A stretch of 64,000 bases of DNA from Clostridia bacterium (GCA_017467445.1 JAFTSG010000010.1:25049-89048); one strand, 5' to 3'; positions 14,580 to 51,621 are shown, counted from the stretch's first letter. Numbers and translations are program-made. The notes: a model not told the origin generated them from the letters alone.

Positions 14580-14581
14580 TT

Positions 14582-18392: not shown

Positions 18393-18419
18393 AAAACCAC
18401 CCAAAACGGGTGGTTTTCT
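18393..18419 (+). terminator. Rho-independent terminator after clpX
   Basis: ACCACCC-AAAAC-GGGTGGT followed by TTTTCTT. Confidence 0.7.
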
Positions 18420-18496: not shown

Positions 18497-18525
18497 TTGA
18501 CACAAATGTCTTTTTATGGTAAAAT
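18497..18525 (+). promoter_or_regulatory. sigma-A promoter with extended -10 for the giant gene
   Basis: TTGACA at 18497-18502, a 17-bp spacer, then TGgTAAAAT at 18517-18525. Confidence 0.5.
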
Positions 18526-18600
18526 ACAAAATATATTATAATGATCTTGCTATTTTTCCCACTACCGAATTTACTAACAATTTAATATTTACGGAACTAT

Positions 18601-18634
18601 AGCAGGAACCATATTTTTTGGTCCTGCTTTTTTT
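18601..18634 (+). promoter_or_regulatory. terminator-like hairpin plus U-tract inside the 5' leader of the giant gene (candidate attenuator)
   Basis: AGCAGGA(A)CCA-tattttt-TGGTCCTGCT (a 10-bp stem with a one-nt bulge) followed by TTTTTT. It lies ~75 nt after the predicted TSS and 53 nt before the ATG at 18688. Confidence 0.45.
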
Positions 18635-18687
18635 GTGGTAACAGCAAAATCATAGTAATTTTCATAAAAATTTTCAAAGAAAGAAGG

Positions 18688-21600
18688 ATGGCAATGAACA
18701 AAAAAAGGATTCTGGCCCTTGTTTTATCTTTAGCAATGCTTTTTAACATCTGTTATTTTTCCGCATATGCTGAAGAAACAACAGAACCTGATATGACCTC
18801 TGCTGTCGTAAATGTTACTGCTTCAAATGCGCAGGACGTTTTAGATGGTAAATATGGTGATATTACAGGTAAAACCATTAACTTCACTGAGGACATCGCT
18901 GAGGTTCTTGACCTTGCTCGTACTACTAAATATGCGGGCAGCGGAACACAGTACCATGCATACAATGGCGATGGTACGCATGCTGAAGAAATGGTTCCAA
19001 TCACAGATGATACGGAAATATCGGCAATTAAGGCTGGATCAAAGTATTATCGTACACTGACAGACGTCACATTCACAGCAGATGAAGGTGTAACAGTTGC
19101 TGGTTTTGTGTTCTCTGCAGGTCATGTATATGCAAATGAAAAAACAGGTCCTGTCTATGACTATGTCAAAGAGGTGTGGACAGAGGTAGGTAGTGCATAT
19201 TACGACTATCGTTCACTTGACGGACTCACTTTTAGAGGCTTGACTGTTACAGGACAGGTTGATGCAAAACTGTATATCGAAGGCAGTACAGTTAAAAACA
19301 TTGTTTTCGACGGTTGTACCTTCACAGGAACAACAGATGATGGAGCCAATGCTGCTATCAAATTCCTGGCAGACAGTCAGTATTTTACAGATATAAAAGT
19401 TGAAAATTGTAATATTGACGGATATTATCAGGGCATATATATTCAAGGCGTTGACGGTGCGGAAGTTTCAAACAACAATATTTCCAACACCGAACACAAT
19501 GCAATTGCCCTGCAAAGCCATTCAAATCCGGCAAAAGGAGCTATTGCAGTTAAAGAAAATTATATTTCGGATGTTACTAACAGAGCTATCCGTTTTGGTG
19601 ACGTTGGCAATGCCGACATTGCAATCAACAATAATATAATGGTTGATTGCGGAAACAGTAATGGTGAGCTTATTGCAGCTGTTTCTGTTGACGGTAGCGC
19701 TACGGTTAATCTGGAATCAAACTATTGGGATGGCAAAGATGTTTCAACAGCCGTTTCCAGTTTTAATGTTCCGACAACTGTTGGTATCACAGGCGGAACA
19801 TGGGATATTCCTGTTGCTGATTATGTTGCAGACGGATATCAGCTTGAAGAGGACGGCAGTGTTGTAGAAACCCCTGCTGAAAAACCTGTTGCAACTGTTG
19901 ACGGTGTTAAATATACTGATTTACAGGCTGCAATCAACGCTGCACAGAGCGGCGATACAGTTGAGATTTATGCAGGCGAATATGACCCGATTAACATCAG
20001 CAATAAGAATATCACAATTAAAGGTACTGTAGGCGATAACGGTGAATTACTCACTACAATCAAGGGTGGCGATCCAGCAATTACAGGTCACTCCTTTAAC
20101 GGCACAATTAAAGATATTAAAATAATTGATGCATGGAAGGTTATGTATGCAGAACCTGCAGGAAACGTAACTGTCGATAATGTTTATGTAACTGGTGCTA
20201 CCTACGGATTCCACCTCGTTGCTTATACCACTGGTATTACATGGACAATTCAGAACAGCTATATGGATTTGAGATGGGCGAACTCCTTTGGCGTATATGG
20301 CGGTTATGCTGACATTATCGTCAAAGGCAACGAATTTGCTTCTACAAATCCGTACTATCCTGATTATGGCGCACTTGCTGTAAATACATTCTCGCCAAAT
20401 GTTACTGTTGAAGAAAATATTTTCCGTAAAAATGCAAGAATTTACATTGATGATTCGGTAACAGACACTTCCAACATCAATGTTTCTAAGAACTATCACG
20501 CTGACGGTGTTGATAAGGCATTTGCAGTCGATGAAGATGGTGGCAAAACAGTTGACATTTATCAGTATTATACTGAAATTGATGAAAACGGCAACCTTTC
20601 CGGTCTTGTGGAAATTCCTGCTACTCCTGCAGCTCCGGTTGCAAAAATCGGCGAAAATACATATACATCACTTGCAGATGCTCTTGCAGCAGCAGTGAAC
20701 GGCGATACAATTATAGTTATTGACGATATTGTTCTTACTGAAACAGTAACAATAGCAGCAGATGATGTTATTACACTTGACCTTAACGGCAAAACTGTTT
20801 CTATGAGCGATTCCTCAAGCAAGGGCGTATACGCTATTACAAATAAAGGTAACCTTACTATTAAGGATTCTTCAGAAGAAGAAACAGGAAAAATTACTTT
20901 TGTATCCAGCACTCCAAGTTCCGTCAATTCATATTCAACAAGCACTATAGGAAATGCGGGACACCTTGTTGTTGAAAGCGGTACAATTGAAAATACTACA
21001 GAAAGTGGCGCAAGCTACGCAATAGATACTGTATGGTATACAGAAGATGTTTCACTTACAATAGCAGGTGGAACAATCGAGTCGAAAAAAGTTGCTATTC
21101 GTCAGGTATTGTATTCCGCTACTGCTCAGAACACACTGAATATTAGTGACGGTACTATTATCGGCGGTACTGCAGCGGCACAAACACATAACTTCCAGTC
21201 TGATGCATGTCTGGCAGACGTAAACATTACGGGTGGTACACTTAAAGGTACATATGCTTATTATACTTCTTATTCGTATAATAACACTCACTCCGGCACA
21301 GACATTGAGATTACAGACGGAACATTCGATGGTGCTGTCTATATCTTTAACAGCCAAGCAGGAAGTGATGCTGCAGAGTTTGCAAATATTTCTGTAGCCG
21401 GCGGTAAATTTAATGGCTATGTCTTAATCTACACTAAAGATGCTGATGGTGCAGAAGTTGCAATTCCTGCTATCAGCGGCGGTACATTTGCAACAGATGT
21501 AACTGATTATCTTGCAGACGGATATGCTCTTACAGAAAATGCAGACGGTACATTTGGCGTTGCAGAATATGTTCCTCCGGTTGCAAAAATCGGCGAAACT

Positions 21601-24600
21601 GAATATGCGACTATTGCAGATGCTCTTGCAGCAGCAACAGCAGGTGCCGAGATTGTTCTTTTGGCGGACGTAGAAGGTGGCATCAACGTTCCTGCAGATG
21701 TTACATTCAACGGTAACGGATTTGCTGTAAAAGGCACGTTTTATGCTTTAGGTGATATTACTTTTGCAGGTCATACTAAAATTGCCAAGTTTGATTTTGA
21801 AAATGTCGGCACAGAAATCAATATCGGTGTAGGTGCTTGTCTTGAAGTTACAGGCACAGGCAGAATGGTTATCGGTCATGGCTGCACATTTAATATTGAA
21901 GGCAACATCACCGATGCTAAAACTGCAAACGTTGCAGAGCTCACTCCTTCACTTATTATGCCGGGTGCATCCTTTACCGGTGCAGGCGTGAGATTCAATG
22001 TGAAGAACGCTTATATCAAGACTACTGCACAATATTGCAGCAGCAGTAAATCGGCAAGCGGAACATTTGATTTCAATATCGAAAACAGTATCTGGGAACA
22101 GTTCGGCAAACTTGCGATTGAGTCACAGTCCACTGCTGCAACTGTCAACTTCGATTTGAAGGATAGTGTACTTACCACTACAAGCCATCTTGTGTTTGGG
22201 GTATCCAGGGGTGAGATCGTTATTGATAACTCCAATGTTAATGTTGGTACATCCAGACAGATCGAAAACCAGAGCACAATGATAATCAAGAATGGCTCTG
22301 TTGTAAACGGCGCTGTTGCTACAAGCTCCAATGCTAAGAACCCCGGTACTATCATCGTTGAAGATGCAACATATGCTGTTACCGGTGAATTCTCTGGCTC
22401 CGATCTTGGAATAGGTACTATCATCCTTAATAAGGATGCAAACTTCACTGCAGGCAGTATCACCAAGGCTAATATTACTATCGACGCAGCAGGTCTTACT
22501 GCCGGCCAAATCGATATGATAACTGCTGACCTTTCAAAGTTTGCAGGCGAAATCAGCGTAATCAACAACACACTTGGTGCCAAGATTGAAAATGGCAAGA
22601 TAGTTCTTGTTGTTAAACCCGTTGCAAAAATTGGCGAAACTACATACACATCACTTCAGGCAGCTCTTGATGCGGCAGCAGCAGGAACAGGAAATGTTAC
22701 TGTTGATATTATAAGTGATATTGACTTAACCGGTGTAGATTGGAATCCTGTAGTTGTAAGCGGACCGGGATATCCGATGTTAACTGTTAACGGTAATAAG
22801 CACGTTATAACAGGTCTTAACGATATGCTTTTCGCATCAACATGGGCAGGAAAATCCGGATTAGTTATTAACGAATTAACAATCAAAGATTCGAACATTG
22901 AACATGACGTAGATGATACTAAAGGCAATATTGGTGTTGGTGCATTTATCGGTTATCCTCAGGCAAGTGCTGTAATTACTTTGAATGACTGTCATTTAGT
23001 TGATTCAACAGTAAACGGTGGTCACTGGACAGGTGGACTTATCGGTATGGCAGGCGGATATAACGGTAATGACGGCCCTGTATTTATGAATCTTACAATT
23101 ACAAACTGTTCTGTTACAGGTTCTACTGTTACAGGTAAAGGCAGCGCAGGTGGCGTAATAGGTCACGGAAGCTGTGCTGCATGGACAAATGTAGTAATTG
23201 AAAACACAACAGTAAGCGGCAACACTATTACTTCTACAGGCTCTTCAACAAACAAAGCAGGGGCCGTTATGGGTACTATAGGTGCTGCAGGACAGGAAAC
23301 AACTGCTAACGGTGAAACAAAAACAGGCGGAGCCTCAGTTTCTGCAATTGTTTCCGATAATACAGTTACATCAAACGGAACTGCTATAACAACAATTTAC
23401 GGCAGACAGGGTACAGAAACAGGTAAACTTGTTGTAAGTGGCGGTACATATGAACATTATCCTATTGAAAAGAATGTTTCTTATGCAAATCCGGCAGATG
23501 GATATGTTATTACAGAAAATGACGACGGTACATACGGTGTTGAAGAAGCTCCGTCAGGTACACTTTCATGTGCATATACATCAGCAACAGGATACTGGGG
23601 CGAATGTGGCGGTAATGCAAAAAAAAGCTTTGAAATCAAATTCTATAATGATGATACATATATGGGATATACAAACCTTAACAATGTAGGCGGTATTATA
23701 GACGGAAGCGTATATGTTTCATGGAGCATCAAATTAGATGCAGCATCAAATACAGACCCATATTGGACAATGGCATGGGAAGTTGCACCAACAATTGCAA
23801 TGCAGCCCAACAGAGTTGAACAGTGGGTTGACGGAGTAAAAGTTGCAGAATGTGCAGTTCAGCCTAACTGGTCTGACAGCATATTCCCGGTTGTTGCAGC
23901 TGTTACAGATGCTGACGGCAAAATCTTAAGCTATGTAAATAACAGAGAAAATGCAACTCTTGCAAACGCATTTGCAAACGGCGGAAATATTGTACTTCTT
24001 AAAGATATCACAGGTACACTTAACATTCCGGCAGATGCAAATGTGGTGCTTGACTTAAATGGCAAGACTTTGACAGGAAGCATTTTAGCTCCTAATGCTA
24101 CGCTGACTATCAGCAATGGCTCCATCGTTAATATAGACAGTAGCGTAAGTGCTATTGAAATAAACGCAGGTGAGCTTACTCTTACCGATGTAAATATTGA
24201 CTCTGCACGTCATGCAGTAAGAATTGACGGTGCTGTTACAGCAACAATCAACGGTGGTACTTACAGAAGTGCTATCGGTACAGGTGTCGGTACATATCAT
24301 GCAGTGAACGTATCAGATGCAGCTAATGTAACAGTTGAAGACGGAACTTTCATAGGTCCTAAGGGTACAACTGCTGACAGCGGTGCTGCTGTAAATGCAC
24401 AGGCAGGTGCTACTGTAACAATCAATGATGGTACATTTACAGGTGGTAAGGCTAACACACTGGCTGCTAAAGGTACACTTACCGTTAAGGGCGGCATTTT
24501 TGATCAGGATCCAAATGCGTACCTTGCAGACGGTTACACAGCAATTAAAGAATTGACAAACGGATGTTATGTTGTAGGTGAAACACCTACCGCAACAGTA

Positions 24601-27516
24601 AATAATCTTGGCGCAATGACAATTCCTGCAGGCGACTACTATGTATATGATGGAAACCTTAGTACTGGTAATGTAGATATGCCTCTCAACTTTGTTATGC
24701 AGTTTGTTGCAGACCAGGATGCAGAGGATATGGAAACCAGTCCATATGCTGATTGGTACGCAGATTTTGTAATCACTTTTGAGGGTATCGAAAACGGAAG
24801 CTTTGACTCGACAGGATGCTATCTGGCAGGTTACTACGGAAGTACAGACAGCTGGGATGGTATGTGGGTTAAAATTCCGGTAGAGGGTATTATCAGCAGC
24901 ATAGATGAAGGCACTCGTTATCCGGTTATGATGGGTGTTGGTATGCCTCAGACATATAACTACATCTGCTCCGGCGTACAGGCGTTCTCCTGCGCAATGT
25001 TCATTCCGGAAAATATACTCAAAGATAATCCCAACCTGAAAGTTAATCTTGAACTTAATGTTGTTGATTCTTCTGATGACAGCAAGGCACTTGAGGCTTT
25101 ACAGACAGGTAATAATATTTACAAAGCTTCAGAAACTACATATACTGCAGAAGATTTTGCAAAACCCGTTGCAAAAATAGGCGAAACTACATACACAACA
25201 CTTCAGGCAGCATTTGATGCAGCAGCATCAACAGATACAATAACACTTTTGAGTGACGTTGAAGTAACTGAAGAAATTAAAGTTACAAACAAAAACGTTC
25301 TTAACGGAAACGTAACTTTGGACGGCGCAGGTTATAAAATAACAGCAGGAGCCCTTGATAAAGAAACAACATCAATTCTTTATTTCGGTAAACCTGATTG
25401 GCTTGCTACGGGAGTAACAATTAAAGACTTAACAATCGATGCACAGTCCGCACGTTTTGCAATAATGTTCTACGGCGGTACATCATCAACTCTTGAAAAT
25501 GTTACAATAACAGGTGATTACCTTTACGCAATCAACCTTTACGGAACTCATGGTGCAACAATGAAAGATTGTAACATAGTATCCGTATTTACAAACGGTC
25601 AGGACGATAATCCGCTTACACTTATCAATACAGATATTGATAAACTCTATGCAAATAAATCTGATGTGGCAGAAGATAAAACAACAGTATTTATCGATAC
25701 TGATTCTACAGTTAATGAACTTACATTCTGGGGAACAAGCACACAGATGATAGAAAGTCTTGACAATGTTGTAATTGTAAAAGATTCAAACGGAAATTCA
25801 CCGGTAGTGGCAATTGGTGCGGTTCAGTACACAACACTTCAGGCGGCGGTTGACGCAGCAGTAAATGGTGATACAATCGAATTGTTGTCAGATATTGAAA
25901 TGACAGATTCTGTTGTAATTTCAGACAAGACTTTAACACTTGACCTTGGCGAACATACAATTTACGATAAGAATACAGATGTTCTTACGTCAACAGATAA
26001 CAAGTGGGGACTTATCGCATTAAAGGACAACTCAAACCTTACTGTTTGTGGCAACGGTACAATAGACTGTAATTATAATGCGGTAACAGCGACCAGTTGG
26101 ACAGGAATGGCGTACTGCTTTGATGTTGATGAAACATCTGAACTTACAGTTAACGGCGGTTTCTTTACTAACGGCAACGGAGGAATTCAGACGGCCGGAA
26201 AAGTTACTGTAAACAATGGTACATTTGTTTCTCACAACGGTGGTACATGTATTATGGCAACCGGTTCGTCTGCTTATGTAACAGTAAACGATGGTATATT
26301 CAAGGATTCTGTTGAGGATGATGATGTTTATACTGGTTCAGGTGCGGTATGGTCCGGCTTTGGTGCAACTGTTAAAATCAGTGGCGGTAGTTATGACTTT
26401 GCAGCAGATCCTGAACACAACAATATTGTATGGACGTTGTTCCCGGCGCAAAACGCAATTTCCGGTTATGGTGAAAATGCAAACATGACAGTAAGCGGCG
26501 GTACATTCGTAAACTTTAACCCTGCAACTGATGCTGTAATTGATTGGTCTAAGTCAACAGGATTTGAATTTGGAAGTGTTGTTGCAGAAGGCTATGAGGT
26601 TACACAAAACGAAGATGGTTCATACGGCGTTGTAGAAGAAACTACAACCGAACTGTTCGGCTTTAAAGAAGTTTCTGCTTCGCTCGACAGTTCACTTGCT
26701 CTTAACCTTTATTTGAATCCATCAGATTTGACAGGAGAAGGTTACTACGCAGTAGTAGAACACACAAAAGCAACAGGTAATGTTGTTACAACAAATATTC
26801 CTTACTCTGAATGGGTAACAACATCAAAAGGTAAAGCTATTAGTTATACAGGCATTGCTGCAAAGGAAATGGTAGATAAAATAAAAGTAACCGTTTATAA
26901 TGCAGACGCTACACAGGCAAGCGAAGCTTATGAAACCAGCCTTAAAGATTATGCAATGGGCATGTTGGATTTATGCAGTAAGAACAGTGCTCTCAGCCAC
27001 TGGTTACCGGTGTTTGTTGATATGTTAAACTATGGTGCAGCAGCTCAGACTATATTTAACTACAATACAAGCAATCTTGCAAATGCAGATGCTGGCGATT
27101 TCCAACAGCATGCAAGCACTACATATGAAATCTCTAACGAAGGCTGCAGTGCATGGGGTGCCCGCACTATTACGCTTACTCTTGAAGATATGATCAAGCT
27201 TAACGTTTACTTTAATAATGTAGAAAAAGGTATGAAAGCAACATATTCGTACACAACACATGGCGGTACTTCAGTAGAAGGAACAGTAGAATATGATTCG
27301 TTTGTGAACGGCGCAGTGCCTGTTGATCTTGCTATTGCAGATGCAGCCACACTCGTAACAGTTACTTTGTTCAACAGTGACGGTACTGAGGCGGGAAAAG
27401 TTGTATATAGCGTAAATGCTTATCTTAAAGGTATGATTGACCTTGGTAAAACCGATGATATTTATCCTGCACTTGCAAAATTTGCGGCATCAGCTAAAGC
27501 ATCCTTTGCAAAATAA
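18688..27516 (+). CDS. giant (2942-aa) secreted multi-module right-handed beta-helix (pectate-lyase-fold) repeat protein; putative adhesin or glycan-binding surface protein
   Basis: It has a Sec signal peptide (MAMNKKRILALVLSLAMLFNICYFSAYA|EE). About eight modules each open with a cap motif (K)PVAKIGETTYTSLQAALDAAxxGDTI.LL followed by PbH1-like coils (for example NNNISNTEHNAIALQS, DLNGKT). One module is a GLUG-like Gly-rich block (TGGLIGMAGGY, GSAGGVIGHGS). No LPXTG, SLH, dockerin or choline-binding repeat was recognised by eye. Confidence 0.85.
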   Translation: MAMNKKRILALVLSLAMLFNICYFSAYAEETTEPDMTSAVVNVTASNAQDVLDGKYGDITGKTINFTEDIAEVLDLARTTKYAGSGTQYHAYNGDGTHAEEMVPITDDTEISAIKAGSKYYRTLTDVTFTADEGVTVAGFVFSAGHVYANEKTGPVYDYVKEVWTEVGSAYYDYRSLDGLTFRGLTVTGQVDAKLYIEGSTVKNIVFDGCTFTGTTDDGANAAIKFLADSQYFTDIKVENCNIDGYYQGIYIQGVDGAEVSNNNISNTEHNAIALQSHSNPAKGAIAVKENYISDVTNRAIRFGDVGNADIAINNNIMVDCGNSNGELIAAVSVDGSATVNLESNYWDGKDVSTAVSSFNVPTTVGITGGTWDIPVADYVADGYQLEEDGSVVETPAEKPVATVDGVKYTDLQAAINAAQSGDTVEIYAGEYDPINISNKNITIKGTVGDNGELLTTIKGGDPAITGHSFNGTIKDIKIIDAWKVMYAEPAGNVTVDNVYVTGATYGFHLVAYTTGITWTIQNSYMDLRWANSFGVYGGYADIIVKGNEFASTNPYYPDYGALAVNTFSPNVTVEENIFRKNARIYIDDSVTDTSNINVSKNYHADGVDKAFAVDEDGGKTVDIYQYYTEIDENGNLSGLVEIPATPAAPVAKIGENTYTSLADALAAAVNGDTIIVIDDIVLTETVTIAADDVITLDLNGKTVSMSDSSSKGVYAITNKGNLTIKDSSEEETGKITFVSSTPSSVNSYSTSTIGNAGHLVVESGTIENTTESGASYAIDTVWYTEDVSLTIAGGTIESKKVAIRQVLYSATAQNTLNISDGTIIGGTAAAQTHNFQSDACLADVNITGGTLKGTYAYYTSYSYNNTHSGTDIEITDGTFDGAVYIFNSQAGSDAAEFANISVAGGKFNGYVLIYTKDADGAEVAIPAISGGTFATDVTDYLADGYALTENADGTFGVAEYVPPVAKIGETEYATIADALAAATAGAEIVLLADVEGGINVPADVTFNGNGFAVKGTFYALGDITFAGHTKIAKFDFENVGTEINIGVGACLEVTGTGRMVIGHGCTFNIEGNITDAKTANVAELTPSLIMPGASFTGAGVRFNVKNAYIKTTAQYCSSSKSASGTFDFNIENSIWEQFGKLAIESQSTAATVNFDLKDSVLTTTSHLVFGVSRGEIVIDNSNVNVGTSRQIENQSTMIIKNGSVVNGAVATSSNAKNPGTIIVEDATYAVTGEFSGSDLGIGTIILNKDANFTAGSITKANITIDAAGLTAGQIDMITADLSKFAGEISVINNTLGAKIENGKIVLVVKPVAKIGETTYTSLQAALDAAAAGTGNVTVDIISDIDLTGVDWNPVVVSGPGYPMLTVNGNKHVITGLNDMLFASTWAGKSGLVINELTIKDSNIEHDVDDTKGNIGVGAFIGYPQASAVITLNDCHLVDSTVNGGHWTGGLIGMAGGYNGNDGPVFMNLTITNCSVTGSTVTGKGSAGGVIGHGSCAAWTNVVIENTTVSGNTITSTGSSTNKAGAVMGTIGAAGQETTANGETKTGGASVSAIVSDNTVTSNGTAITTIYGRQGTETGKLVVSGGTYEHYPIEKNVSYANPADGYVITENDDGTYGVEEAPSGTLSCAYTSATGYWGECGGNAKKSFEIKFYNDDTYMGYTNLNNVGGIIDGSVYVSWSIKLDAASNTDPYWTMAWEVAPTIAMQPNRVEQWVDGVKVAECAVQPNWSDSIFPVVAAVTDADGKILSYVNNRENATLANAFANGGNIVLLKDITGTLNIPADANVVLDLNGKTLTGSILAPNATLTISNGSIVNIDSSVSAIEINAGELTLTDVNIDSARHAVRIDGAVTATINGGTYRSAIGTGVGTYHAVNVSDAANVTVEDGTFIGPKGTTADSGAAVNAQAGATVTINDGTFTGGKANTLAAKGTLTVKGGIFDQDPNAYLADGYTAIKELTNGCYVVGETPTATVNNLGAMTIPAGDYYVYDGNLSTGNVDMPLNFVMQFVADQDAEDMETSPYADWYADFVITFEGIENGSFDSTGCYLAGYYGSTDSWDGMWVKIPVEGIISSIDEGTRYPVMMGVGMPQTYNYICSGVQAFSCAMFIPENILKDNPNLKVNLELNVVDSSDDSKALEALQTGNNIYKASETTYTAEDFAKPVAKIGETTYTTLQAAFDAAASTDTITLLSDVEVTEEIKVTNKNVLNGNVTLDGAGYKITAGALDKETTSILYFGKPDWLATGVTIKDLTIDAQSARFAIMFYGGTSSTLENVTITGDYLYAINLYGTHGATMKDCNIVSVFTNGQDDNPLTLINTDIDKLYANKSDVAEDKTTVFIDTDSTVNELTFWGTSTQMIESLDNVVIVKDSNGNSPVVAIGAVQYTTLQAAVDAAVNGDTIELLSDIEMTDSVVISDKTLTLDLGEHTIYDKNTDVLTSTDNKWGLIALKDNSNLTVCGNGTIDCNYNAVTATSWTGMAYCFDVDETSELTVNGGFFTNGNGGIQTAGKVTVNNGTFVSHNGGTCIMATGSSAYVTVNDGIFKDSVEDDDVYTGSGAVWSGFGATVKISGGSYDFAADPEHNNIVWTLFPAQNAISGYGENANMTVSGGTFVNFNPATDAVIDWSKSTGFEFGSVVAEGYEVTQNEDGSYGVVEETTTELFGFKEVSASLDSSLALNLYLNPSDLTGEGYYAVVEHTKATGNVVTTNIPYSEWVTTSKGKAISYTGIAAKEMVDKIKVTVYNADATQASEAYETSLKDYAMGMLDLCSKNSALSHWLPVFVDMLNYGAAAQTIFNYNTSNLANADAGDFQQHASTTYEISNEGCSAWGARTITLTLEDMIKLNVYFNNVEKGMKATYSYTTHGGTSVEGTVEYDSFVNGAVPVDLAIADAATLVTVTLFNSDGTEAGKVVYSVNAYLKGMIDLGKTDDIYPALAKFAASAKASFAK

Positions 27517-27546: not shown

Positions 27547-27699
27547 ATGAAATACGAAACACCCAATATGAAAGTTATTAAACTTGATGTAACCGATATC
27601 ATACAGACATCCCTTGGTGAAAATGAACTTCCGGGCTTACCGTTATCTTTAACTCCGGAAAACGTTGAGTCATATTCAGAGTTAGACAATAGTTTTTAA
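27547..27699 (+). CDS. unannotated 50-aa peptide ORF (MKYETPNMKVIKLDVTDIIQTSLGENELPGLPLSLTPENVESYSELDNSF); candidate precursor or leader-type peptide
   Basis: It is absent from the ORF track (<60 aa). A strong RBS (gaaaggggaa) sits 7-8 nt before the ATG, 31 nt after the giant-gene stop. It is followed by a strong terminator. The N-half is K-rich and leader-like; the C-half is acidic and Ser/Thr-rich. Confidence 0.45.
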   Translation: MKYETPNMKVIKLDVTDIIQTSLGENELPGLPLSLTPENVESYSELDNSF

Positions 27700-27711
27700 T
27701 TTGGTATGGAA

Positions 27712-27742
27712 AAACGGGCAGGTAGATAGCCTGCCCGTTTTT
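27712..27742 (+). terminator. Rho-independent terminator closing the giant-gene/peptide transcription unit
   Basis: AAACGGGCAGG-tagatag-CCTGCCCGTTT followed by TT. Confidence 0.7.
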
Positions 27743-27821
27743 ACTCCAATTTTTCCTGAACAAAAATTAAATCTTATGATACAATACACAGAAAAATTTG
27801 CAGATATCGAGGAAAAATAAA

Positions 27822-28271
27822 ATGTTATTATCGTTGTTTTTTAGAGTATTAAGGCTTATGATTACAAGCATACTTTGTTCTTTGCCCATATATCTTGAAT
27901 ACGTGGGAACAATTCCGGATAATGTTATACTATTTTTATCGTTTGTAGCATTTATGGCCGCAACAGGTATTGACGCATGTCGATTTTCCAGTGCTTTTTG
28001 GAAAATACAGGATTATTATTTGGGTCAGCTTTTACCATTAGTTATATATATTATTATGGGCTTTTTAACTTGTTTATTATTTCAGCCTGTTGTGTTCAAC
28101 AGAATATTTCTGCCTTTAAGATTTGCAGGGGGATTTGGAATGAGAACTATTGAATCAATAGTTTATGTTGCAATAACCATTATAATAATAGTAACGATTT
28201 TGAGATTTTTCGGAGCAAGATTAGGTCGTTCAACTCACAATATGTTTGTCAGAGAAAATGAAGATATATAA
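27822..28271 (+). CDS. small 4-TM membrane protein, first gene of a 3-gene operon
   Basis: RBS gaggaaaaataaaATG; four hydrophobic helices. Upstream is an extended -10 promoter (TGaTACAAT, ~27776-27784). The track's start at 27798 lacks an RBS. Confidence 0.5.
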   Translation: MLLSLFFRVLRLMITSILCSLPIYLEYVGTIPDNVILFLSFVAFMAATGIDACRFSSAFWKIQDYYLGQLLPLVIYIIMGFLTCLLFQPVVFNRIFLPLRFAGGFGMRTIESIVYVAITIIIIVTILRFFGARLGRSTHNMFVRENEDI

Positions 28272-28338
28272 CTTGCTGTAAAATTTGCAGCTTTTATATA
28301 TGATGACAGCATCTAAGATTAAGCCAAGGGGTAGTTAT

Positions 28339-29031
28339 ATGTTTGTTATTTGCCTTGCTGAGTTAAATATAGCTATTGAAAATAAATATGATTACATAAA
28401 AGCTATGTGCCGTGATTATATTACGTATAACAAAGCTGATTTTTGCGTATCTGCTTCTGATGAGGAAATACAGGCAGAAGATAAGGGAACCGGCTTTGAC
28501 AGGGGATATCTTGAAAGCCTTGCCATATATCGCAAAATAGCGGAGAAAATACTCGACTACAACGGTTTTTTAATGCACGGAGTTGTCCTTGATGCAGACG
28601 GATGCGGCATTGCATTTTTAGCAAAAAGCGGTGTGGGCAAAAGCACACATACAAACTTATGGAAACAACTTCTGGGAGATAAAATGACCGTTATAAACGG
28701 CGACAAGCCTCTTGTAAGAATAGCAGGCGACACCGTTTTTGCCTATGGAACACCGTGGGCAGGGAAAGAAAATATACATACCAACACCAAAACGATACTC
28801 AAAAAAATATGTTTTATTGAACGTTCGGAAAACAATGAGTGTCTGGAAATTGGAAAAGATGCGGTTTTGGAACGTCTTATAAATCAGATATATATTCCTA
28901 AAAATGGCACAGGGTTATATTTGACATTGGAATACATAAAATTATTAATAGAAAAATGTGATTTCTACTTGATAAAATGTAATACGGAAATCTCAGCAGC
29001 CAAAACAGCTTATGAGGTAATTACTAAATGA
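28339..29031 (+). CDS. stand-alone HPr kinase/phosphorylase C-terminal-domain homolog (P-loop kinase-like)
   Basis: HGVVLDADGCGIAFLAKSGVGKSTHTNLW closely parallels the HprK catalytic P-loop region [26 protein letters not shown] (recalled). The start at 28339 is preferred because of the RBS aaggggtag. There is no N-terminal HprK regulatory domain. Confidence 0.6.
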   Translation: MFVICLAELNIAIENKYDYIKAMCRDYITYNKADFCVSASDEEIQAEDKGTGFDRGYLESLAIYRKIAEKILDYNGFLMHGVVLDADGCGIAFLAKSGVGKSTHTNLWKQLLGDKMTVINGDKPLVRIAGDTVFAYGTPWAGKENIHTNTKTILKKICFIERSENNECLEIGKDAVLERLINQIYIPKNGTGLYLTLEYIKLLIEKCDFYLIKCNTEISAAKTAYEVITK

Positions 29032-29444
29032 AAAGTATAGAAAAAATATTGGAAGAAGAAAAAGTATTTGTGGGAGTAACGCAAGGGGACAGTATGTATC
29101 CGATGCTGGTTTCGGGGCGCGACAGGGTGGTTATATCACCGCCGGTTTTCCCGCTTAAAAAGTATGATGTGCCTTTATATAAACGATACGGACATTATAC
29201 TCTGCACCGGATAGTCAAGGTAACAAAACACGGCAAGTATATTATCTGTGGGGACAACAGAACACATCTGGAAATGAATGTAACAGAGAAAGATATTATC
29301 GGTGTTTTAACTGCTTTTTACCGCGATGATAAATATGTGGAATGTACCGATAAGGAGTATATCAGATATTCAAAAAAGGTTTGTCGCTCACTGCCGTGGC
29401 GAAGAATGAAAGAGATTTTGAAAAGTAAATTTCATAAAGATTAA
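29028..29444 (+). CDS. mini Ser/Lys-dyad peptidase (S24 LexA-like or S26 signal-peptidase-like catalytic core)
   Basis: GDSMYPML box (nucleophile Ser) and a downstream HRIVKV (general-base Lys box). It has no TM anchor or HTH, and it is translationally coupled (ATGA) to the kinase-like gene. Confidence 0.55.
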   Translation: MKSIEKILEEEKVFVGVTQGDSMYPMLVSGRDRVVISPPVFPLKKYDVPLYKRYGHYTLHRIVKVTKHGKYIICGDNRTHLEMNVTEKDIIGVLTAFYRDDKYVECTDKEYIRYSKKVCRSLPWRRMKEILKSKFHKD

Positions 29445-29480: not shown

Positions 29481-30287
29481 TTATCTGATAACCGTAAAAT
29501 ATAAGATAACAACTATTGCAAGTGCAATTCTGTACCAGCCGAATGATGAGAAACTGTGCTTTTTCACAAAGTTCATAAGGAACCTTATTGCAAGCATTGA
29601 TACGGCGTAAGATACTACCATACCAATTCCGAGAAGAACCCAGTTGATAATACCCTCATATGTAGCAATCTTAAGTGCACTTACACCAAACATTATCGGG
29701 ATTGCAAGGAAAAACGAAAACTCTGCCGCAACGCTGCGCGATGTTCCAAGAAGCATACCGCCAAGTATTGTAGATCCCGAACGCGATGTGCCGGGTATTA
29801 TGGAAAGTACCTGAAACAGCCCGATAGCAACAGCGTTTTTATACGACAAATCGTTAATTGAAGTGATAGTTGTTTTCTTATTCATCTTTTCAATTACAAT
29901 AAACGCAATACCGTAAATAATAAGCGCAGCGGAAACAACCTGCCAGTTTTCAAAGTTTTCCATATAATCGTTAAGCAAAAGTCCTGCTACTGCTGCAGGG
30001 ATGCAGGCAGCGATAACCTTAAACCACATCTGCCACGTATCTTTCTTTTCCTGCACTGATTTTGACGGAGCAAATGGATTAAGCTTGTGGAAAAAGTGCG
30101 TTACAACCGCAAGGATTGCACCAAGCTGAATAACGTATATGTACAAATCGGAGTTGAGAAACGACCCCTCGTTATTCATAAATTCGTTAAACAAAATAAG
30201 GTGTCCGGTAGAGCTTACGGGAAGCCATTCGGTAATACCTTCAACTATACCCAGAAACACCGATTTAAGCATTTCAATAATAAGCAT
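29481..30287 (-). CDS. uppP: undecaprenyl-diphosphatase (BacA/UppP)
   Basis: N-terminal GIVEGITEWLPVSSTGHL and 8 TM segments. Confidence 0.9.
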   Translation of the reverse strand: MLIIEMLKSVFLGIVEGITEWLPVSSTGHLILFNEFMNNEGSFLNSDLYIYVIQLGAILAVVTHFFHKLNPFAPSKSVQEKKDTWQMWFKVIAACIPAAVAGLLLNDYMENFENWQVVSAALIIYGIAFIVIEKMNKKTTITSINDLSYKNAVAIGLFQVLSIIPGTSRSGSTILGGMLLGTSRSVAAEFSFFLAIPIMFGVSALKIATYEGIINWVLLGIGMVVSYAVSMLAIRFLMNFVKKHSFSSFGWYRIALAIVVILYFTVIR

Positions 30288-30422
30288 TCTATCATATCCT
30301 TTCTTATGAAAATAATTTACATACTATTAATATAATTATGTCAAGAAAAAGCTGTAAATGCCATTGACTAAAATGGGTATTTACAGCTTGAAACAGAAAA
30401 GGATGGAGTTACACAATTTAGA

Positions 30423-47480: not shown

Positions 47481-47572
47481 GGAGAAGTACTCAAGTTGGC
47501 CGAAGAGGCGCCCCTGCTAAGGGTGTAGGTCGGGTAACCGGCGCGAGAGTTCAAATCTCTCCTTCTCCGCCA
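47481..47572 (+). tRNA. tRNA-Ser (anticodon GCT), with long variable arm and encoded CCA
   Basis: Acceptor GGAGAAG/CTTCTCC, anticodon loop CTGCTAA, long variable arm, T-arm GAGTTCAAATCTC, CCA at 47570-47572. The 3' 23 nt are repeated at 53856-53878. Confidence 0.8.
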
Positions 47573-49224: not shown

Positions 49225-49333
49225 TTGTAATCACTCCTTGTAATAATATTTATATTATTATATATATTATATCAGTTTTGATTTTCCTTGTCTATTGATG
49301 TATTATATAAAATGTTTTATTGTTTTTTTACTC

Positions 49334-49903: not shown

Positions 49904-50034
49904 TTCTCACTCCTTAACAGTTAATTTATAGTGTATGATATTATAAGCTATAGTATAGGTGTTAAATCTCATAAAATGCCATTAAAACCTTGCTTAAAGT
50001 GATTTTTAGCATTTTTTATATTCTTACTCTTGTA

Positions 50035-51504: not shown

Positions 51505-51621
51505 ATAATCAACTCCATAATTTATTACATTTTCAAAAACTTCCGTGTTAAGGTAGTTTTGTTTAATTATACACCATAAACAATGATTTGTAAATAGTTT
51601 ATAATTAAATACATAAAATAA

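What the first reader, a model, noticed from the sequence alone, without database searches (positions are those of the whole stretch)
18688..27516. 2942-aa secreted protein built from ~8 tandem beta-helix modules with no recognisable cell-wall anchor
Seen in sequence: a single 8.8-kb ORF with a Sec signal peptide. Each module opens with the cap (K)PVAKIGETTYTSLQAALDAAxxGDTI.LL followed by PbH1-type coils. One module carries GLUG-like Gly-rich repeats. Two intermodule regions are Trp/Tyr-rich and could be lectin-like. The C-terminal ~380 aa have no LPXTG, SLH, dockerin, choline-binding or GW repeats that I can recognise. Inference: a giant adhesin or glycan-binding or glycan-degrading fibre, possibly retained through an unrecognised C-terminal domain. 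Its promoter, leader attenuator and 3' co-transcribed peptide ORF make it a regulated accessory locus.
Basis: partly seen in the sequence, partly recalled or inferred. Interest (0 to 1): 0.6.

Follow-up and report, generated by a model that had tools for sequence, protein, structure and literature searches.

The report
Giant mosaic surface protein, uncatalogued C-terminal domain
An uncultured gut Clostridia bacterium encodes a real 2,940-residue secreted protein built from unrelated beta-solenoid cassettes, and it ends in a very common but uncatalogued C-terminal domain that is usually followed, as here, by a small peptide gene with peptide-maturation genes.

Summary
The ORF is real. An identical gene with the same neighbours occurs in two other assemblies.

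It has a Sec signal peptide, eight beta-solenoid-like modules, two beta-sandwich domains and a 289-residue C-terminal domain (CT). The modules are not copies of each other. They share only a ~45-residue cap and a ~20-residue tail. Each body has its own closest relative (41-87% identity) in a different giant protein, so this is a cassette mosaic.

No known anchor is present. CT belongs to a family absent from Pfam, NCBIfam and PDB:
- 13,317 cluster representatives, almost always at the extreme C-terminus.
- Carried by many kinds of signal-peptide protein: BspA LRR, amylases, lyases, cohesin.
- At least 12 copies in one MAG.
- Sits where homologous giants carry SLH repeats or a T9SS tail.

I infer that CT is a cell-surface retention or sorting module. 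This is untested.

The 50-codon 3' ORF is a conserved peptide with a lasso-like leader. It follows the CT gene in 24 of 66 loci, and all six peptide-seeded contigs carry a CT domain. ScmC/HprK-like and S24-like genes follow it here; PqqD and an ABC exporter join them in related loci. No lasso cyclase was seen.

The leader "attenuator" exists but is not conserved.

The parts
18497..18525 (+). Promoter-like site: TTGACA, 17-nt spacer, TAAAAT with TG extension
   Evidence: 11 of 12 consensus matches. It lies downstream of the clpX terminator at 18393-18417. Consensus match only.
18601..18636 (+). Terminator-like hairpin with a U7 run in the 5' leader, about 58 nt before the start codon
   Evidence: Folding 18596-18640 gives -15.9 kcal/mol, z = -4.97. 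No Rfam family matches. Of nine related giant genes checked, eight have no equivalent hairpin and one (L012) has a weaker candidate.
18688..27516 (+). Giant ORF: 2942 codons from the first ATG. The probable start is ATG 18694 (2940 aa).
   Evidence: The identical gene is in two other assemblies.
18688..18771 (+). Sec-type signal peptide (aa 1-28, AYA|EE)
   Evidence: Read from the sequence. The only hydrophobic stretch resembling a membrane span; a marginal second window at aa 2876-2877 falls in a CT beta-strand.
18772..19887 (+). Module M0 (aa 29-400): a beta-helix without a cap that ends in the ADGY tail motif
   Evidence: Pfam Beta_helix PF13229 scores 38.4 bits for the whole protein; its best stretch is aa 180-345. 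The best homologue is 74% identical.
19888..20631 (+). Module M1 (aa 401-648), degenerate cap PVATVDGVKYTDLQAAINAA
   Evidence: There are 33 homologues covering at least 70% of the module, the best 87% identical. No Pfam hit.
20632..21573 (+). Module M2 (aa 649-962): cap, (I/V)xGGTF-type coils, tail motif
   Evidence: It is 27% identical to M7 along the whole body.
21574..22614 (+). Module M3 (aa 963-1309), capped, with a body unrelated to the other modules
   Evidence: The best homologues are 70-73% identical and lie in four different giant proteins.
22615..23562 (+). Module M4 (aa 1310-1625), capped, with Gly-rich GGLIG/GGVIG coils and a tail motif
   Evidence: There is no Pfam Glug hit at E<=10. 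The best homologues are 76-80% identical.
23563..23937 (+). W1 (about aa 1626-1750): Trp/Tyr-rich beta-sandwich domain
   Evidence: All-beta in the AF2 model (pLDDT 93.4 overall). There are 25 homologous segments in other giants. No Pfam hit.
23938..24612 (+). Module M5 (about aa 1751-1975): degenerate cap helix, solenoid coils, tail motif
   Evidence: AF2 model. Weak Foldseek matches to phage tailspikes and pectate lyase A. Weak pAdhesive_15 hit.
24613..25161 (+). W2 (aa 1976-2158): second Trp/Tyr-rich beta-rich domain
   Evidence: AF2 model. The same domain lies directly after the signal peptide (residues ~26-231) in P0033-P0035, P0038-P0040, P0057 and P0015.
25162..25797 (+). Module M6 (aa 2159-2370), capped beta-helix
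   Evidence: Beta_helix scores 31.0 bits (cut-off 25.9). Pectate_lyase_5 PF20585 scores 27.4 bits (cut-off 24.3).
25798..26646 (+). Module M7 (aa 2371-2653): cap, coils, tail motif
   Evidence: The best homologue is 77% identical.
26647..27513 (+). CT domain (aa 2654-2942): two units, each a beta-sandwich followed by a helical hairpin, with the near-invariant motif DMLNYGAAAQ..F.Y
   Evidence: AF2 pLDDT 94.7, pTM 0.90. No Pfam, NCBIfam or PDB relative. The family has 13,317 cluster representatives. In the blastp table all but a handful of aligned homologues leave a tail of 15 aa or less.
27547..27699 (+). 50-aa peptide ORF (MKYETPNMKVIKLDVTDIIQTS|LGENELPG...) with its own RBS, 30 nt after the giant stop codon
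   Evidence: The family has 345 members. It follows the CT gene in 24 of 66 loci. Its leader resembles Firmicutes lasso leaders (PMC7533575 Table 3).
27711..27743 (+). Strong intrinsic terminator after the peptide ORF
   Evidence: Folding 27700-27750 gives -26.8 kcal/mol, z = -6.65, followed by a U-run.
27822..28271 (+). 149-aa polytopic membrane protein (about 4 hydrophobic segments)
   Evidence: It is 69% identical to a gene in L003. Related loci carry a 186-189-aa multi-TM protein at the same position, with no detectable sequence similarity.
28300..29031 (+). 243-aa ScmC/HPr-kinase-like P-loop protein (Walker A: AKSGVGKST)
   Evidence: Pfam Hpr_kinase_C is weak: E = 0.0064, 16.5 bits, below the cut-off. 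It is 34% identical over 239 aa to the L088 gene annotated PF27840 ScmC. Sequence.
29028..29444 (+). 138-aa soluble S24/S26-like peptidase (GDSMYPM)
   Evidence: Pfam Peptidase_S24 scores 18.7 bits, below the 23.3 cut-off. Homologues sit after PqqD in L043, L075, L088 and, by position and length, L095 and L096.

Best explanation
The gene encodes a Sec-exported, cell-surface-displayed giant protein of an uncultured gut Clostridia bacterium.

The passenger is a chain of eight heterologous beta-solenoid cassettes and two beta-sandwich domains. The cassettes are joined through conserved cap and tail junctions. These junctions are probably the sites where cassettes are exchanged between paralogous and xenologous giant genes, giving variable glycan- or cell-binding (possibly glycan-cleaving) surfaces.

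The last 289 residues are a domain of a very large, uncatalogued family. I propose that this domain holds the protein on the cell envelope non-covalently, or sorts it there. That is the role played by SLH repeats or the T9SS tail in homologous giants.

The giant gene is transcribed together with a small precursor-like peptide. The peptide has a lasso-type, RRE-binding-like leader and a variable acidic Gly/Pro-rich core with an E-(L/T)-P-x-G motif. Its likely maturation genes (membrane protein, ScmC/HprK-like P-loop protein, S24-like peptidase) follow after a terminator.

Shown: ORF integrity, the signal peptide sequence, domain boundaries and folds, mosaicism, the size and architecture of the CT family, and the CT-peptide gene linkage.

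Inferred: surface retention by CT, binding as the function of the passenger, co-transcription, and any functional coupling between CT and the peptide.
For: ORF AND INDEPENDENT ASSEMBLIES.

BETA-SOLENOID NATURE
- Beta_helix and Pectate_lyase_5 pass their cut-offs.
- The AF2 model of aa 1618-2160 has pLDDT 93.4. Tailspikes and pectate lyase are its best fold matches, but weak.

MOSAIC
- Only the cap and tail are shared among modules.
- Each module has its own best homologue in a different giant protein: 59-87% identity for nine of the eleven segments, 41% (M2) and 44% (M6) for the other two.

CT
- Confident two-unit fold.
- No Pfam, NCBIfam or PDB relative.
- 13,317 representatives at E<=1e-3. 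In nearly all of the 150 listed, the match runs to within a few residues of the C-terminus.
- In the blastp table, all but a handful of aligned homologues leave a tail of 15 aa or less.
- Among 87 CT proteins scanned (most with signal-peptide-like N-termini), passengers include BspA LRR (39 of 87), amylase/pullulanase, pectate and rhamnogalacturonan lyases, transglutaminase-like, endonuclease, CHAP and cohesin domains. None carries a known wall anchor at E<=1e-5.
- About 460-aa proteins consist of signal peptide, cohesin and CT.
- At least 12 CT loci occur in one MAG, and 425 confirmed loci occur in species-representative genomes of Oscillospiraceae and other Clostridia.
- Homologous giants end instead in three SLH repeats or a T9SS tail.

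PEPTIDE LINKAGE
- The peptide gene starts 9-74 nt after the CT stop codon in 24 of 66 evaluable loci, and in 12 of the 15 closest.
- 6 of 6 peptide-seeded long contigs carry a CT domain next to the peptide.
- The cassette ScmC-PqqD-S24-like-ABC(-NTP_transf_5) recurs.
- In the window there is no terminator between the giant stop codon and the peptide, and a strong one after it.
Against: - There is no experimental or structural evidence that CT binds anything. Its only fold matches are generic tandem FN3 domains (TM about 0.2).
- CT was not found in phage endolysins or viral contigs, where wall-binding modules often recur.
- 42 of 66 CT loci lack the peptide. One MAG with at least 12 CT genes shows none. 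So CT does not need the peptide.
- Six of eight modules have no sequence-level beta-helix assignment, and only one (M5) was modelled.
- The window lacks the PqqD and ABC exporter genes seen in the fuller cassettes.
- Nothing distinguishes adhesin from enzyme.
Confidence: 0.55

Rival explanations
1. The protein is a released extracellular enzyme, such as a polysaccharide lyase, hydrolase or depolymerase, and CT is a substrate-binding (CBM-like) module rather than a cell anchor.
For: - Beta-helix folds are typical of pectate lyases and phage depolymerases, which are the best (weak) fold matches.
- CT is attached to many carbohydrate-active enzymes: amylase/pullulanase, PL11, pectate lyase.
- CT units are beta-sandwiches, as many CBMs are.
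Against: - CT is most often attached to non-enzymatic BspA-type LRR proteins (39 of 87) and to a lone cohesin. That fits an anchor better than one substrate specificity.
- Enzymes carrying CT already have their own CBM26, CBM48 or CBM77 modules.
- CT sits where SLH repeats or a T9SS tail sit in homologues.
- No catalytic family was detected in the giant protein.
Confidence: 0.2
2. CT is a sorting or processing signal for a dedicated pathway that also involves the adjacent peptide cassette. The E-L-P-x-G-ended peptide, or a lipoprotein with the same ending, would be the partner or handle to which CT proteins are docked or ligated. This would be a new surface-display system.
For: - The CT-peptide adjacency is tight and holds in both directions.
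- A small membrane protein follows the peptide in at least 13 loci.
- PT/E-rich lipoproteins next to the peptide end in the same C-terminal motif as the peptide: DDLGWG in L088, EELPIG in L095.
- That motif occurs in only 12 of 7,209 small ORFs, all of them these peptides or lipoproteins.
Against: - Most CT genes have no adjacent peptide.
- Two of seven metagenome hits have the peptide after a non-CT secreted protein, and two have neither.
- The window has no such lipoprotein, and its peptide carries the motif internally.
- No complex prediction could be run.
Confidence: 0.15
3. The 3' peptide and the downstream genes form an independent RiPP locus, for example a signalling or antimicrobial peptide with an immunity or export membrane protein. 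It sits behind strongly expressed surface-protein genes for expression only. The giant protein has no functional tie to it.
For: - The leader resembles lasso and RRE-dependent leaders.
- The PqqD, P-loop, peptidase, ABC exporter and NTP_transf_5 genes are typical RiPP tailoring and export genes.
- A peptide gene followed by a small polytopic membrane protein resembles bacteriocin-immunity pairs (my own knowledge).
- A strong terminator separates the peptide from the enzymes.
Against: Random placement does not explain why the upstream gene ends in a CT domain in 6 of 6 peptide-seeded long contigs (one, L096, only a partial copy) and in 3 of 7 pattern-seeded metagenome contigs. The spacing is conserved at mostly 18-20 nt.
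Confidence: 0.35
4. The long ORF is an assembly artefact or a decaying pseudogene.
For: The sequence is metagenome-derived and contains internal repeats of 59-74 nt.
Against: - The identical 2940-aa product was called on three independent contigs with the same flanks.
- The repeats are short and diverged (69-89% identity), too weak to cause chimeric joins.
- Every module has full-length homologues.
Confidence: 0.01

Closest known systems
Beta-solenoid (pectate-lyase-like) adhesive domains of Firmicutes fibrillar-adhesin-like proteins (Monzon & Bateman 2022, PMC9210967; e.g. L. reuteri SRRP binding region, PDB 5NY0; Pfam PF20585 Pectate_lyase_5)
   Same: It is a large secreted Firmicutes protein. 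Module M6 passes the PF20585 and Beta_helix cut-offs. That paper notes that an anchor could be found in only about half of its positive training set of adhesins.
   Different: There is no repetitive Ig-like stalk and no known anchor. Here many different solenoid cassettes are concatenated, rather than one adhesive tip sitting on a stalk.
Homologous giant proteins that end in SLH repeats (P0036, P0062, P0083) or a T9SS C-terminal sorting domain (P0004, P0008, P0013, P0056)
   Same: They share individual cassettes with the window protein at 46-75% identity and have the same overall build.
   Different: Their C-termini are known anchoring or sorting modules. The window protein carries the uncatalogued CT domain in that position.
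Phage tailspike/depolymerase and pectate lyase right-handed beta-helices (e.g. CBA120 TSP2 5w6p, K2-2 TSP 8iq9, PelA 1jrg)
   Same: These are the best fold matches for the modelled M5 solenoid.
   Different: The matches are weak (E from 2e-4 to 0.1, TM 0.1-0.34). No catalytic residues or trimerisation features were tested. The protein is not phage-borne.
Anchoring scaffoldins of cellulosome-type systems: a cohesin plus a cell-surface anchor such as SLH or a sortase signal (my own knowledge)
   Same: About 460-aa proteins built of signal peptide, cohesin and CT have the architecture of an anchoring scaffoldin, with CT in the anchor position.
   Different: CT has no similarity to SLH domains or sortase signals. 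No dockerin partners were examined.
Lasso-peptide gene clusters of Firmicutes with HPr-kinase, PqqD (RRE) and nucleotidyltransferase accessory genes (PMC7533575; paeninodin and pseudomycoidin as cited there)
   Same: The peptide leader (aromatic-x-x-P-x-hydrophobic ... T-x | G) resembles the published leaders such as MKKDWTIPTLEVLDINMTMA|G. PqqD, a kinase-like P-loop protein, PF14907 and an ABC exporter co-occur in related loci.
   Different: No lasso cyclase (Asn-synthetase-like) or B2 transglutaminase-like protease appears in any locus examined. An S24-like peptidase is present instead. The cores lack a consistent Gly1 with Asp/Glu at positions 7-9. The gene is linked to a CT-domain gene.

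Membership tests
Right-handed parallel beta-helix (Pfam PF13229 Beta_helix) | Profile match above the gathering score | tested here: met
   The whole protein scores 38.4 bits against a cut-off of 25.9 (best stretch aa 180-345). Module M6 alone scores 31.0 bits.
Right-handed parallel beta-helix (Pfam PF13229 Beta_helix) | All eight proposed modules are recognisable as beta-helix by sequence | tested here: not met
   M1, M2, M3, M4, M5 and M7 have no Beta_helix hit at E<=10. TIGR03804 scores 17 bits, below its 19.45 cut-off.
Right-handed parallel beta-helix (Pfam PF13229 Beta_helix) | Solenoid three-dimensional fold | tested here: inconclusive
   Only M5 was modelled. The model is confident (pLDDT 93.4). 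Foldseek's best matches are tailspikes and pectate lyases, but weak. The coordinates could not be inspected.
Pectate_lyase_5 (PF20585, putative pectate lyase-like adhesive domain) | Profile match above the gathering score | tested here: met
   M6 residues 9-118 score 27.4 bits against a cut-off of 24.3 and cover profile positions 5-121 of 126.
Pectate lyase / polysaccharide lyase enzymes | Catalytic Ca-binding acidic residues and a Brønsted base in the cleft | not tested
   There is no alignment to a characterised lyase from which to map the residues.
GLUG repeat (PF07581) | Profile match | tested here: not met
   M4 has no hit at E<=10. Only GGLIG/GGVIG-like motifs are visible in the sequence.
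Fibrillar adhesin (definition in PMC9210967) | Very long secreted protein | tested here: met
   2940-2942 aa with a signal peptide.
Fibrillar adhesin (definition in PMC9210967) | Stalk of repeated stalk domains | tested here: not met
   The modules are heterologous and there are no tandem identical Ig-like repeats.
Fibrillar adhesin (definition in PMC9210967) | Known cell-surface anchor | tested here: not met
   No LPXTG-type motif, SLH, CW_binding or LysM domain is present.
Sortase-anchored (LPXTG) surface proteins | An LPXTG-like motif followed by a hydrophobic segment and a basic tail at the C-terminus | tested here: not met
   The regular-expression search and hydropathy scan are negative. 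The protein ends ...AASAKASFAK.
SLH, dockerin, choline-binding, GW or T9SS-CTD terminal modules | Pfam match in the C-terminal region | tested here: not met
   The CT region has 0 Pfam families at E<=10 and only a chance-level NCBIfam row (E = 0.15, DkgA reductase). As a positive control, SLH and Por_Secre_tail are detected in homologues by the same tool.
Lasso peptide (for ORF 27547-27699) | Leader with an aromatic-xx-P-x-L type motif and Thr at position -2 | tested here: inconclusive
   Y3, P6, M8 and T21-S22 are present. The spacing is about 5 residues longer than in the published Firmicutes leaders.
Lasso peptide (for ORF 27547-27699) | Lasso cyclase (Asn-synthetase homologue) and B2 protease in the cluster | tested here: not met
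   Neither appears among the genes of the window cluster or of L043, L075, L088, L090, L095 and L096.
Lasso peptide (for ORF 27547-27699) | Core starting with Gly (or Ala/Ser/Cys) and Asp/Glu at position 7-9 | tested here: not met
   The window core begins with L-G and has no acidic residue at positions 7-9. Family members are inconsistent on this point.
RRE-dependent RiPP cluster | A PqqD-like RRE protein encoded next to the precursor | tested here: not met
   The window has no PqqD homologue. Related loci do have one: L043 at 54 bits, and L088, L095 and L096. The feature is met for the family but not for this locus.
ScmC / HPr-kinase-like P-loop proteins (PF27840; PF07475) | Profile match, Walker A motif | tested here: inconclusive
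   Hpr_kinase_C scores 16.5 bits, below its 33.3 cut-off. The Walker A motif AKSGVGKST is present. The protein is 34% identical over 239 aa to a protein annotated PF27840. PF27840 is not in the Pfam copy I could scan.
Peptidase S24/S26 | Profile match above cut-off and a Ser/Lys dyad | tested here: inconclusive
   The score is 18.7 bits, below the 23.3 cut-off. The GDSMYPM motif is present, and the general base is not assigned.

The most novel reading that the evidence does not exclude
CT domains, the E-(L/T)-P-x-G-ended leader peptides, the PT-rich lipoproteins that end in the same motif, and the ScmC/PqqD/S24-like/ABC genes together form a previously undescribed protein surface-display system of gut Oscillospiraceae and related Clostridia. 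In it, secreted proteins dock through CT onto, or are coupled to, a matured peptide or a lipoprotein handle. This would be a functional analogue of the sortase/LPXTG, SLH/SCWP or cohesin/dockerin systems.
Probability: 0.15. Interest if true: 0.85.

Novelty: new variant of a known kind. Interest (0 to 1): 0.6.

Why it matters
Oscillospiraceae and related Clostridia are abundant and mostly uncultured gut bacteria. How they display amylases, pectin lyases, BspA-like LRR proteins and giant adhesin-like proteins on their surface is unknown.

This locus points to one domain, absent from Pfam and NCBIfam, that sits at the C-terminus of more than 10,000 protein clusters. It is the obvious candidate for the missing anchor.

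If the inference holds:
- It would improve localisation prediction for thousands of gut proteins.
- It would give a handle for surface display.
- It would explain the "anchorless" fibrillar adhesins noted in the literature.

The recurrent pairing of CT genes with a lasso-like-leader peptide and its maturation genes is unexplained and can be tested.

The cassette mosaic, including cassettes more than 70% identical in proteins that carry Bacteroidota-type T9SS tails, suggests rapid exchange of surface-protein modules, possibly across phyla.

Tried and rejected
STRUCTURE AND FOLD SEARCHES
- A 1,196-aa multi-module alignment for structure prediction (A3) was discarded. MAFFT stacked all fragments onto module M4. 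I replaced it with a 543-aa region whose alignment I checked first.
- PDB sequence and profile searches for CT, W1-M5-W2, the P-loop protein and the peptidase found nothing significant.

CT OUTSIDE BACTERIAL CHROMOSOMES
- CT in viral contigs: no confirmed hit.
- CT in cultured-phage records: one weak partial hit.
- CT in plasmids: none.
- The idea that phage endolysins share CT therefore has no support.

PEPTIDE SEARCHES
- The degenerate DNA pattern found only 7 metagenome loci, 3 of them with CT.

OTHER
- Rfam found no family for the leader.
- A search for conserved leader hairpins upstream of nine related giant genes was negative in eight; one (L012) has a weaker candidate.
- Literature searches for the CT motif, the peptide motif, ScmC/SynChlorMet and RRE+HPr-kinase+peptidase combinations found nothing relevant.

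REJECTED READINGS
- Assembly artefact.
- Simple tandem-repeat array.
- True lasso-peptide cluster, because no cyclase or B2 protease is present.
- A phage or plasmid origin for CT itself. The flanking genes are ordinary chromosomal genes.


Full report

The window holds a single uninterrupted ORF at 18688-27516 on the + strand, 2942 codons. Gene callers on other assemblies start at the second ATG (18694, 2940 aa). The GAAGGA ribosome-binding site is better spaced for that start.

The identical protein, with the same neighbours, was called on a 121-kb ENA contig and a 13-kb Logan contig from other samples. The neighbours are tig, clpP and clpX upstream, and a 50-aa ORF, three further ORFs and uppP downstream. 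An assembly join can therefore be excluded.

The flanks are ordinary chromosomal genes:
- Upstream: MurJ, Wzy_C, a GT4 glycosyltransferase, two DUF4330 genes, trigger factor, ClpP and ClpX.
- Downstream: BacA/UppP, a ParA-like ATPase and ValRS.

The peptide ORF is recorded in NCBI as a hypothetical protein of a "Clostridia bacterium" MAG.

**2. Anatomy of the protein**

The N-terminus (MAMNKKRILALVLSLAMLFNICYFSAYA|EE) is a typical Sec signal peptide. It is the only hydrophobic stretch resembling a membrane span: a second, marginal window at aa 2876-2877 lies in a predicted beta-strand of CT.

Two motifs let me divide the rest:
- A cap, (K)PVAKIGETTYTSL.AA..AA, strict at aa 651, 965, 1312, 2161 and 2373, and degenerate at about 403 and 1755.
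- A tail, ADGY..(T)E.DG(T)YGV, at aa 381, 943, 1603, 1947 and 2633.

This gives eight solenoid-type modules (M0-M7), two Trp/Tyr-rich inserts (W1 at about 1626-1750, W2 at 1976-2158) and a terminal domain CT (2654-2942).

Sequence-level family assignments are limited:
- Pfam Beta_helix passes its cut-off in M0 (38.4 bits for the whole protein) and in M6 (31.0 bits).
- M6 also passes PF20585, the "putative pectate lyase-like adhesive domain" (27.4 bits against a cut-off of 24.3).
- The other six modules have no family hit at E<=10.
- GLUG is not detected.

An AlphaFold2 model of aa 1618-2160 (W1-M5-W2) was built on a checked 41-row alignment. It is confident, with pLDDT 93.4 and pTM 0.90. By the model's secondary structure the two flanking domains are strand-rich (W2 also has short helices), and M5 between them opens with a short cap helix followed by strands only.

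Foldseek against PDB gives only weak matches:
- Phage tailspikes (CBA120 TSP2, K2-2 TSP) and pectate lyase A; by fold type I attribute these to the M5 solenoid.
- A porphyran-binding CBM (107 aa, TM 0.45 on the target); by size I attribute it to one of the W domains.

So "beta-helix modules" is supported for M0, M5 and M6 and is plausible for the rest. "Lectin-like" remains a fold-level possibility only.

**3. Not a repeat array but a cassette mosaic**

Self-comparison shows that the modules share only the cap of about 45 residues (40-60% identity) and the tail. Only M2, M5 and M7 align along their bodies, at 27% identity or below, with the M5-M7 match partial. At the DNA level the only repeats are the cap (74 nt, four copies, 69-89% identity) and the tail (59 nt, three copies).

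A search of 5.8 billion proteins found 258 relatives, the 120 listed being 1.6-5.1 kaa long. The best local match of each covers only 6-33% of the query.

Each module has its own best relative in a different protein:

| Module | Best relative | Identity |
|---|---|---|
| M1 | P0003 | 87% |
| M3 | P0018 | 73% |
| M4 | P0028 | 80% |
| W1 | P0051 | 84% |
| W2 | P0002 | 81% |
| M7 | P0003 | 77% |

W2 also occurs directly behind the signal peptide of other giants.

The conserved cap and tail junctions are therefore plausible recombination points. That is an inference.

Some relatives carrying cassettes up to 75% identical end in a T9SS sorting domain, or are annotated as coming from Kiritimatiellae, Bacteroidales or Verrucomicrobia MAGs. 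This hints at exchange of cassettes between phyla, or at binning errors. I did not pursue it.

**4. The C-terminal domain**

CT has no hit in Pfam at E<=10. NCBIfam and the PDB sequence searches return only single chance-level rows, E = 0.07-0.8.

Modelled with 62 sequences, it folds confidently (pLDDT 94.7, pTM 0.90) into two units. Each unit is a 7-8-strand beta-sandwich followed by a helical hairpin. Foldseek finds only generic tandem FN3 pairs at TM about 0.2.

The most conserved element is a helix carrying DMLNYGAAAQ..F.Y. Residues Y129, G130 and Q134 are invariant.

A profile search of 1.84 billion cluster representatives finds 13,317 proteins at E<=1e-3 and 10,345 at E<=1e-10. In nearly all of the 150 listed, the match runs to within a few residues of the C-terminus.

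In the BLAST tables, all but a handful of aligned homologues leave a tail of 15 residues or fewer behind CT. The complete proteins mostly have signal-peptide-like N-termini.

A motif scan of one genome per species gave 425 confirmed loci. Nearly all are in Oscillospiraceae or unclassified Clostridia MAGs from animal and human guts. Among the best 80 loci alone, one MAG holds at least 12, another 8 and another 7.

Pfam scans of 87 full-length CT proteins show very diverse passengers:
- BspA-type LRR (39 of 87)
- amylase/pullulanase with CBM26/48
- rhamnogalacturonan and pectate lyases
- transglutaminase-like, endonuclease I, CHAP, CAP and cohesin domains

No known wall anchor appears in any of the 87. 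About 460-aa proteins consist of just a signal peptide, a cohesin and CT. That is the architecture of an anchoring scaffoldin.

In giant relatives that share cassettes with the window protein, the same terminal position is held by three SLH repeats or by a T9SS tail.

These features are what one expects of a cell-surface retention or sorting module:
- a terminal position
- many different passengers
- many copies per genome
- mutual exclusion with known anchors
- positional equivalence to SLH repeats and the T9SS tail

This is my main inference, and it is untested.

Evidence against it, or missing:
- I found no CT in viral contigs or plasmids, and only one weak partial hit in phage records. The classic sharing of a wall-binding module with endolysins is therefore not seen.
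- No ligand is known.

**5. The 3' peptide ORF leads somewhere unexpected**

Thirty nucleotides after the giant stop codon, with its own AAAGGGGA ribosome-binding site and no intervening hairpin, lies a 50-codon ORF (27547-27699). A strong terminator follows it (-26.8 kcal/mol, z = -6.65).

The ORF is conserved:
- tblastn and a leader HMM find a similar ORF starting 9-74 nt (mostly 18-20 nt) after the CT gene's stop codon. The consensus is MKY-x-x-PE-I/V-E-I-h-x-F/L-x-x-x-DVI-x-TS-G, followed by a variable Gly/Glu/Asp/Pro-rich core that often ends in E-(L/T)-P-x-G.
- This holds in 24 of 66 evaluable genome loci, and in 12 of the 15 with the closest CT.
- Apart from two hits that lie next to a CT gene's start (L022) or next to ScmC/S24-like genes (L061), there are none elsewhere in about 1 Mb of flanking DNA.
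- The family has at least 345 members in the protein database, none with an informative name.

Reciprocal tests:
- Six peptide-seeded contexts, chosen only for contig length, all have a CT domain next to the peptide. In L096 this is only a partial copy.
- A strict DNA-pattern scan of metagenome contigs gave 7 loci. Three have CT directly upstream, two follow other secreted proteins, and two have neither.

The leader resembles published Firmicutes lasso-peptide leaders such as MKKDWTIPTLEVLDINMTMA|G (PMC7533575, Table 3).

Downstream genes recur:
- a P-loop protein annotated PF27840 ScmC (weakly HPr-kinase-like)
- PqqD (54 bits in L043)
- a soluble S24-like peptidase
- an ABC exporter
- sometimes the PF14907 nucleotidyltransferase

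The window has a reduced set:
- a 149-aa four-span membrane protein
- the ScmC-like protein (Walker A AKSGVGKST; 34% identical to the L088 protein)
- the S24-like peptidase (GDSMYPM)
- no PqqD and no ABC exporter

No lasso cyclase or B2 protease occurs in any of these loci. This is therefore not a lasso cluster but an RRE-type, RiPP-like cassette of unknown product.

Two further observations remain unexplained:
- In at least 13 giant-protein loci the peptide is followed by a conserved 186-189-aa multi-span membrane protein.
- In three distinct loci a small Pro/Thr/Glu-rich lipoprotein lies next to the peptide. In two of them it ends in the same C-terminal motif as the peptide: L088 has ...DDDLGWG and ...DNDLGWG, and L095 has ...ENELPIG and ...EEELPIG. 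In the third (L090) only the lipoprotein carries the motif (...DRDDELPIG). The motif is found in only 12 of 7,209 small ORFs in all loci, and all 12 are these peptides or lipoproteins.

**6. Regulatory claims**

- After the clpX terminator (18393-18417) there is a near-consensus extended -10 promoter at 18497-18525.
- A terminator-like hairpin with a U7 run lies at 18601-18636 in the leader (-15.9 kcal/mol, z = -4.97).
- No Rfam family matches.
- Of nine related giant genes checked, eight have no equivalent hairpin upstream; one (L012) has a weaker candidate.

The structure is real, but "attenuator" is unproven.

**7. Most likely mechanism and rivals**

Best reading (confidence about 0.55):
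- The protein is exported by Sec.
- The passenger presents a long series of different solenoid and sandwich surfaces for binding, or possibly cleaving, glycans or other cells.
- CT keeps it on the envelope.
- The gene is co-transcribed with a precursor-like peptide whose maturation genes follow.

Rivals:
- A released enzyme with CT acting as a CBM (0.2). Against this: CT is most often found on LRR proteins and on a lone cohesin, and the enzymes that carry CT already have their own CBMs.
- CT together with the peptide or lipoprotein forms a new docking or ligation system (0.15). This is attractive given the linkage and the shared C-terminal motif. However, most CT genes lack the peptide, and the window lacks the lipoprotein.
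- The peptide cassette is functionally independent and merely co-located (0.35 for that sub-question).
- An artefact (0.01).

**8. Comparison with known systems, and novelty**

The passenger is a new member of a known kind. Giant beta-solenoid, adhesin-like surface proteins of Firmicutes are described. [quoted passage not shown]

What is not described in any library or paper I could search:
- the CT family itself
- its recurrent linkage to a lasso-like-leader peptide and an ScmC/PqqD/S24-like/ABC cassette

I therefore rate the whole as a new variant of a known kind, with a minority chance that it marks a new surface-display system.

**9. Limits**

- Everything about function is inferred from architecture and gene neighbourhood.
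- Only one solenoid module and CT were modelled.
- Model coordinates could not be inspected.
- The loci come from MAGs, so taxonomy and copy numbers are approximate.

Noticed in passing
window 27547-27699; L003-L017, L023-L029, L039, L043, L053, L057, L061, L068, L075, L088-L096: The 50-aa ORF belongs to a family of at least 345 small peptides. They have a conserved leader (MKYxxPEIEIhxFxxxDVIxTS) and a variable acidic Gly/Pro-rich core that often ends in E-(L/T)-P-x-G. The gene starts 9-74 nt after the stop codon of a CT-domain gene in 24 of 66 loci.
   Followed up: yes
L088 7257-7574; L095 7236-7637; L090 6511-6876 (= L022 4854): Small lipoproteins or membrane-anchored Pro/Thr/Glu-rich proteins lie next to the peptide gene. 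In L088 and L095 they end in the same C-terminal motif as the peptide (DDLGWG, EELPIG); in L090 only the lipoprotein carries it. The motif is found in only 12 of 7,209 small ORFs across all loci. The window has no such gene.
   Followed up: partly
L004-L007, L009, L010, L012-L014, L016, L017, L027, L092, L094 (about 250 nt after the peptide); window 27822-28271: A conserved 186-189-aa multi-span membrane protein follows the peptide in at least 13 giant-protein loci. L092 and L094 also have a small Cys-rich Zn-ribbon-like ORF. The window has a 149-aa four-span protein at the same place, with no detectable similarity.
   Followed up: partly
window 28300-29444; L043, L075, L088, L095, L096: A recurrent cassette of ScmC-like P-loop protein, PqqD, soluble S24-like peptidase, ABC exporter and sometimes the PF14907 nucleotidyltransferase occurs without a lasso cyclase or B2 protease. 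This looks like an RRE-type RiPP-like pathway of unknown product. The window copy lacks PqqD and the exporter.
   Followed up: partly
window about 47500-53000 (GC 0.28-0.32, against about 0.40 elsewhere): A low-GC island lies on the minus strand. It is bounded by a large serine recombinase (47551-49224) and a tyrosine integrase (51919-52920), with four ORFs of unknown function between them. It is probably a small integrated mobile element.
   Followed up: partly
window 9596-15079 and 29481-31238; L075 4777-6418; L090 1299-5283: The giant gene and related peptide cassettes sit among cell-envelope polysaccharide genes. In the window these are MurJ, Wzy_C, GT4, two DUF4330 genes and UppP. In related loci they are Wzz, a CpsD-like ATPase, CpsB and LytR-CpsA-Psr.
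   Followed up: no
homologues P0004, P0008, P0013, P0026, P0033, P0056, P0095, P0112: Cassettes 36-75% identical to window modules occur in giant proteins that end in a Bacteroidota-type T9SS sorting domain, or that are annotated from Kiritimatiellae, Bacteroidales or Verrucomicrobia MAGs. This could mean transfer of cassettes between phyla, or binning errors.
   Followed up: no
window 20627-20700, 21569-21642, 22610-22683, 25157-25230; 21509-21567, 23489-23547, 26579-26637: The only DNA repeats inside the giant gene are the module junctions: the cap (74 nt, four copies, 69-89% identity) and the tail (59 nt, three copies, 75-81% to the reference). They are candidate recombination substrates for cassette shuffling.
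   Followed up: partly
window 24613-25161 (W2); P0033-P0035, P0038-P0040, P0057, P0015 residues ~26-231: The W2 domain is placed immediately after the signal peptide in several other giant proteins. It is therefore an independent, portable domain that may serve as the distal tip.
   Followed up: partly
window 18688 versus 18694: Two in-frame ATG codons lie 6 nt apart. Gene callers and the RBS spacing favour 18694, so the product is probably 2940 aa rather than 2942 aa.
   Followed up: yes
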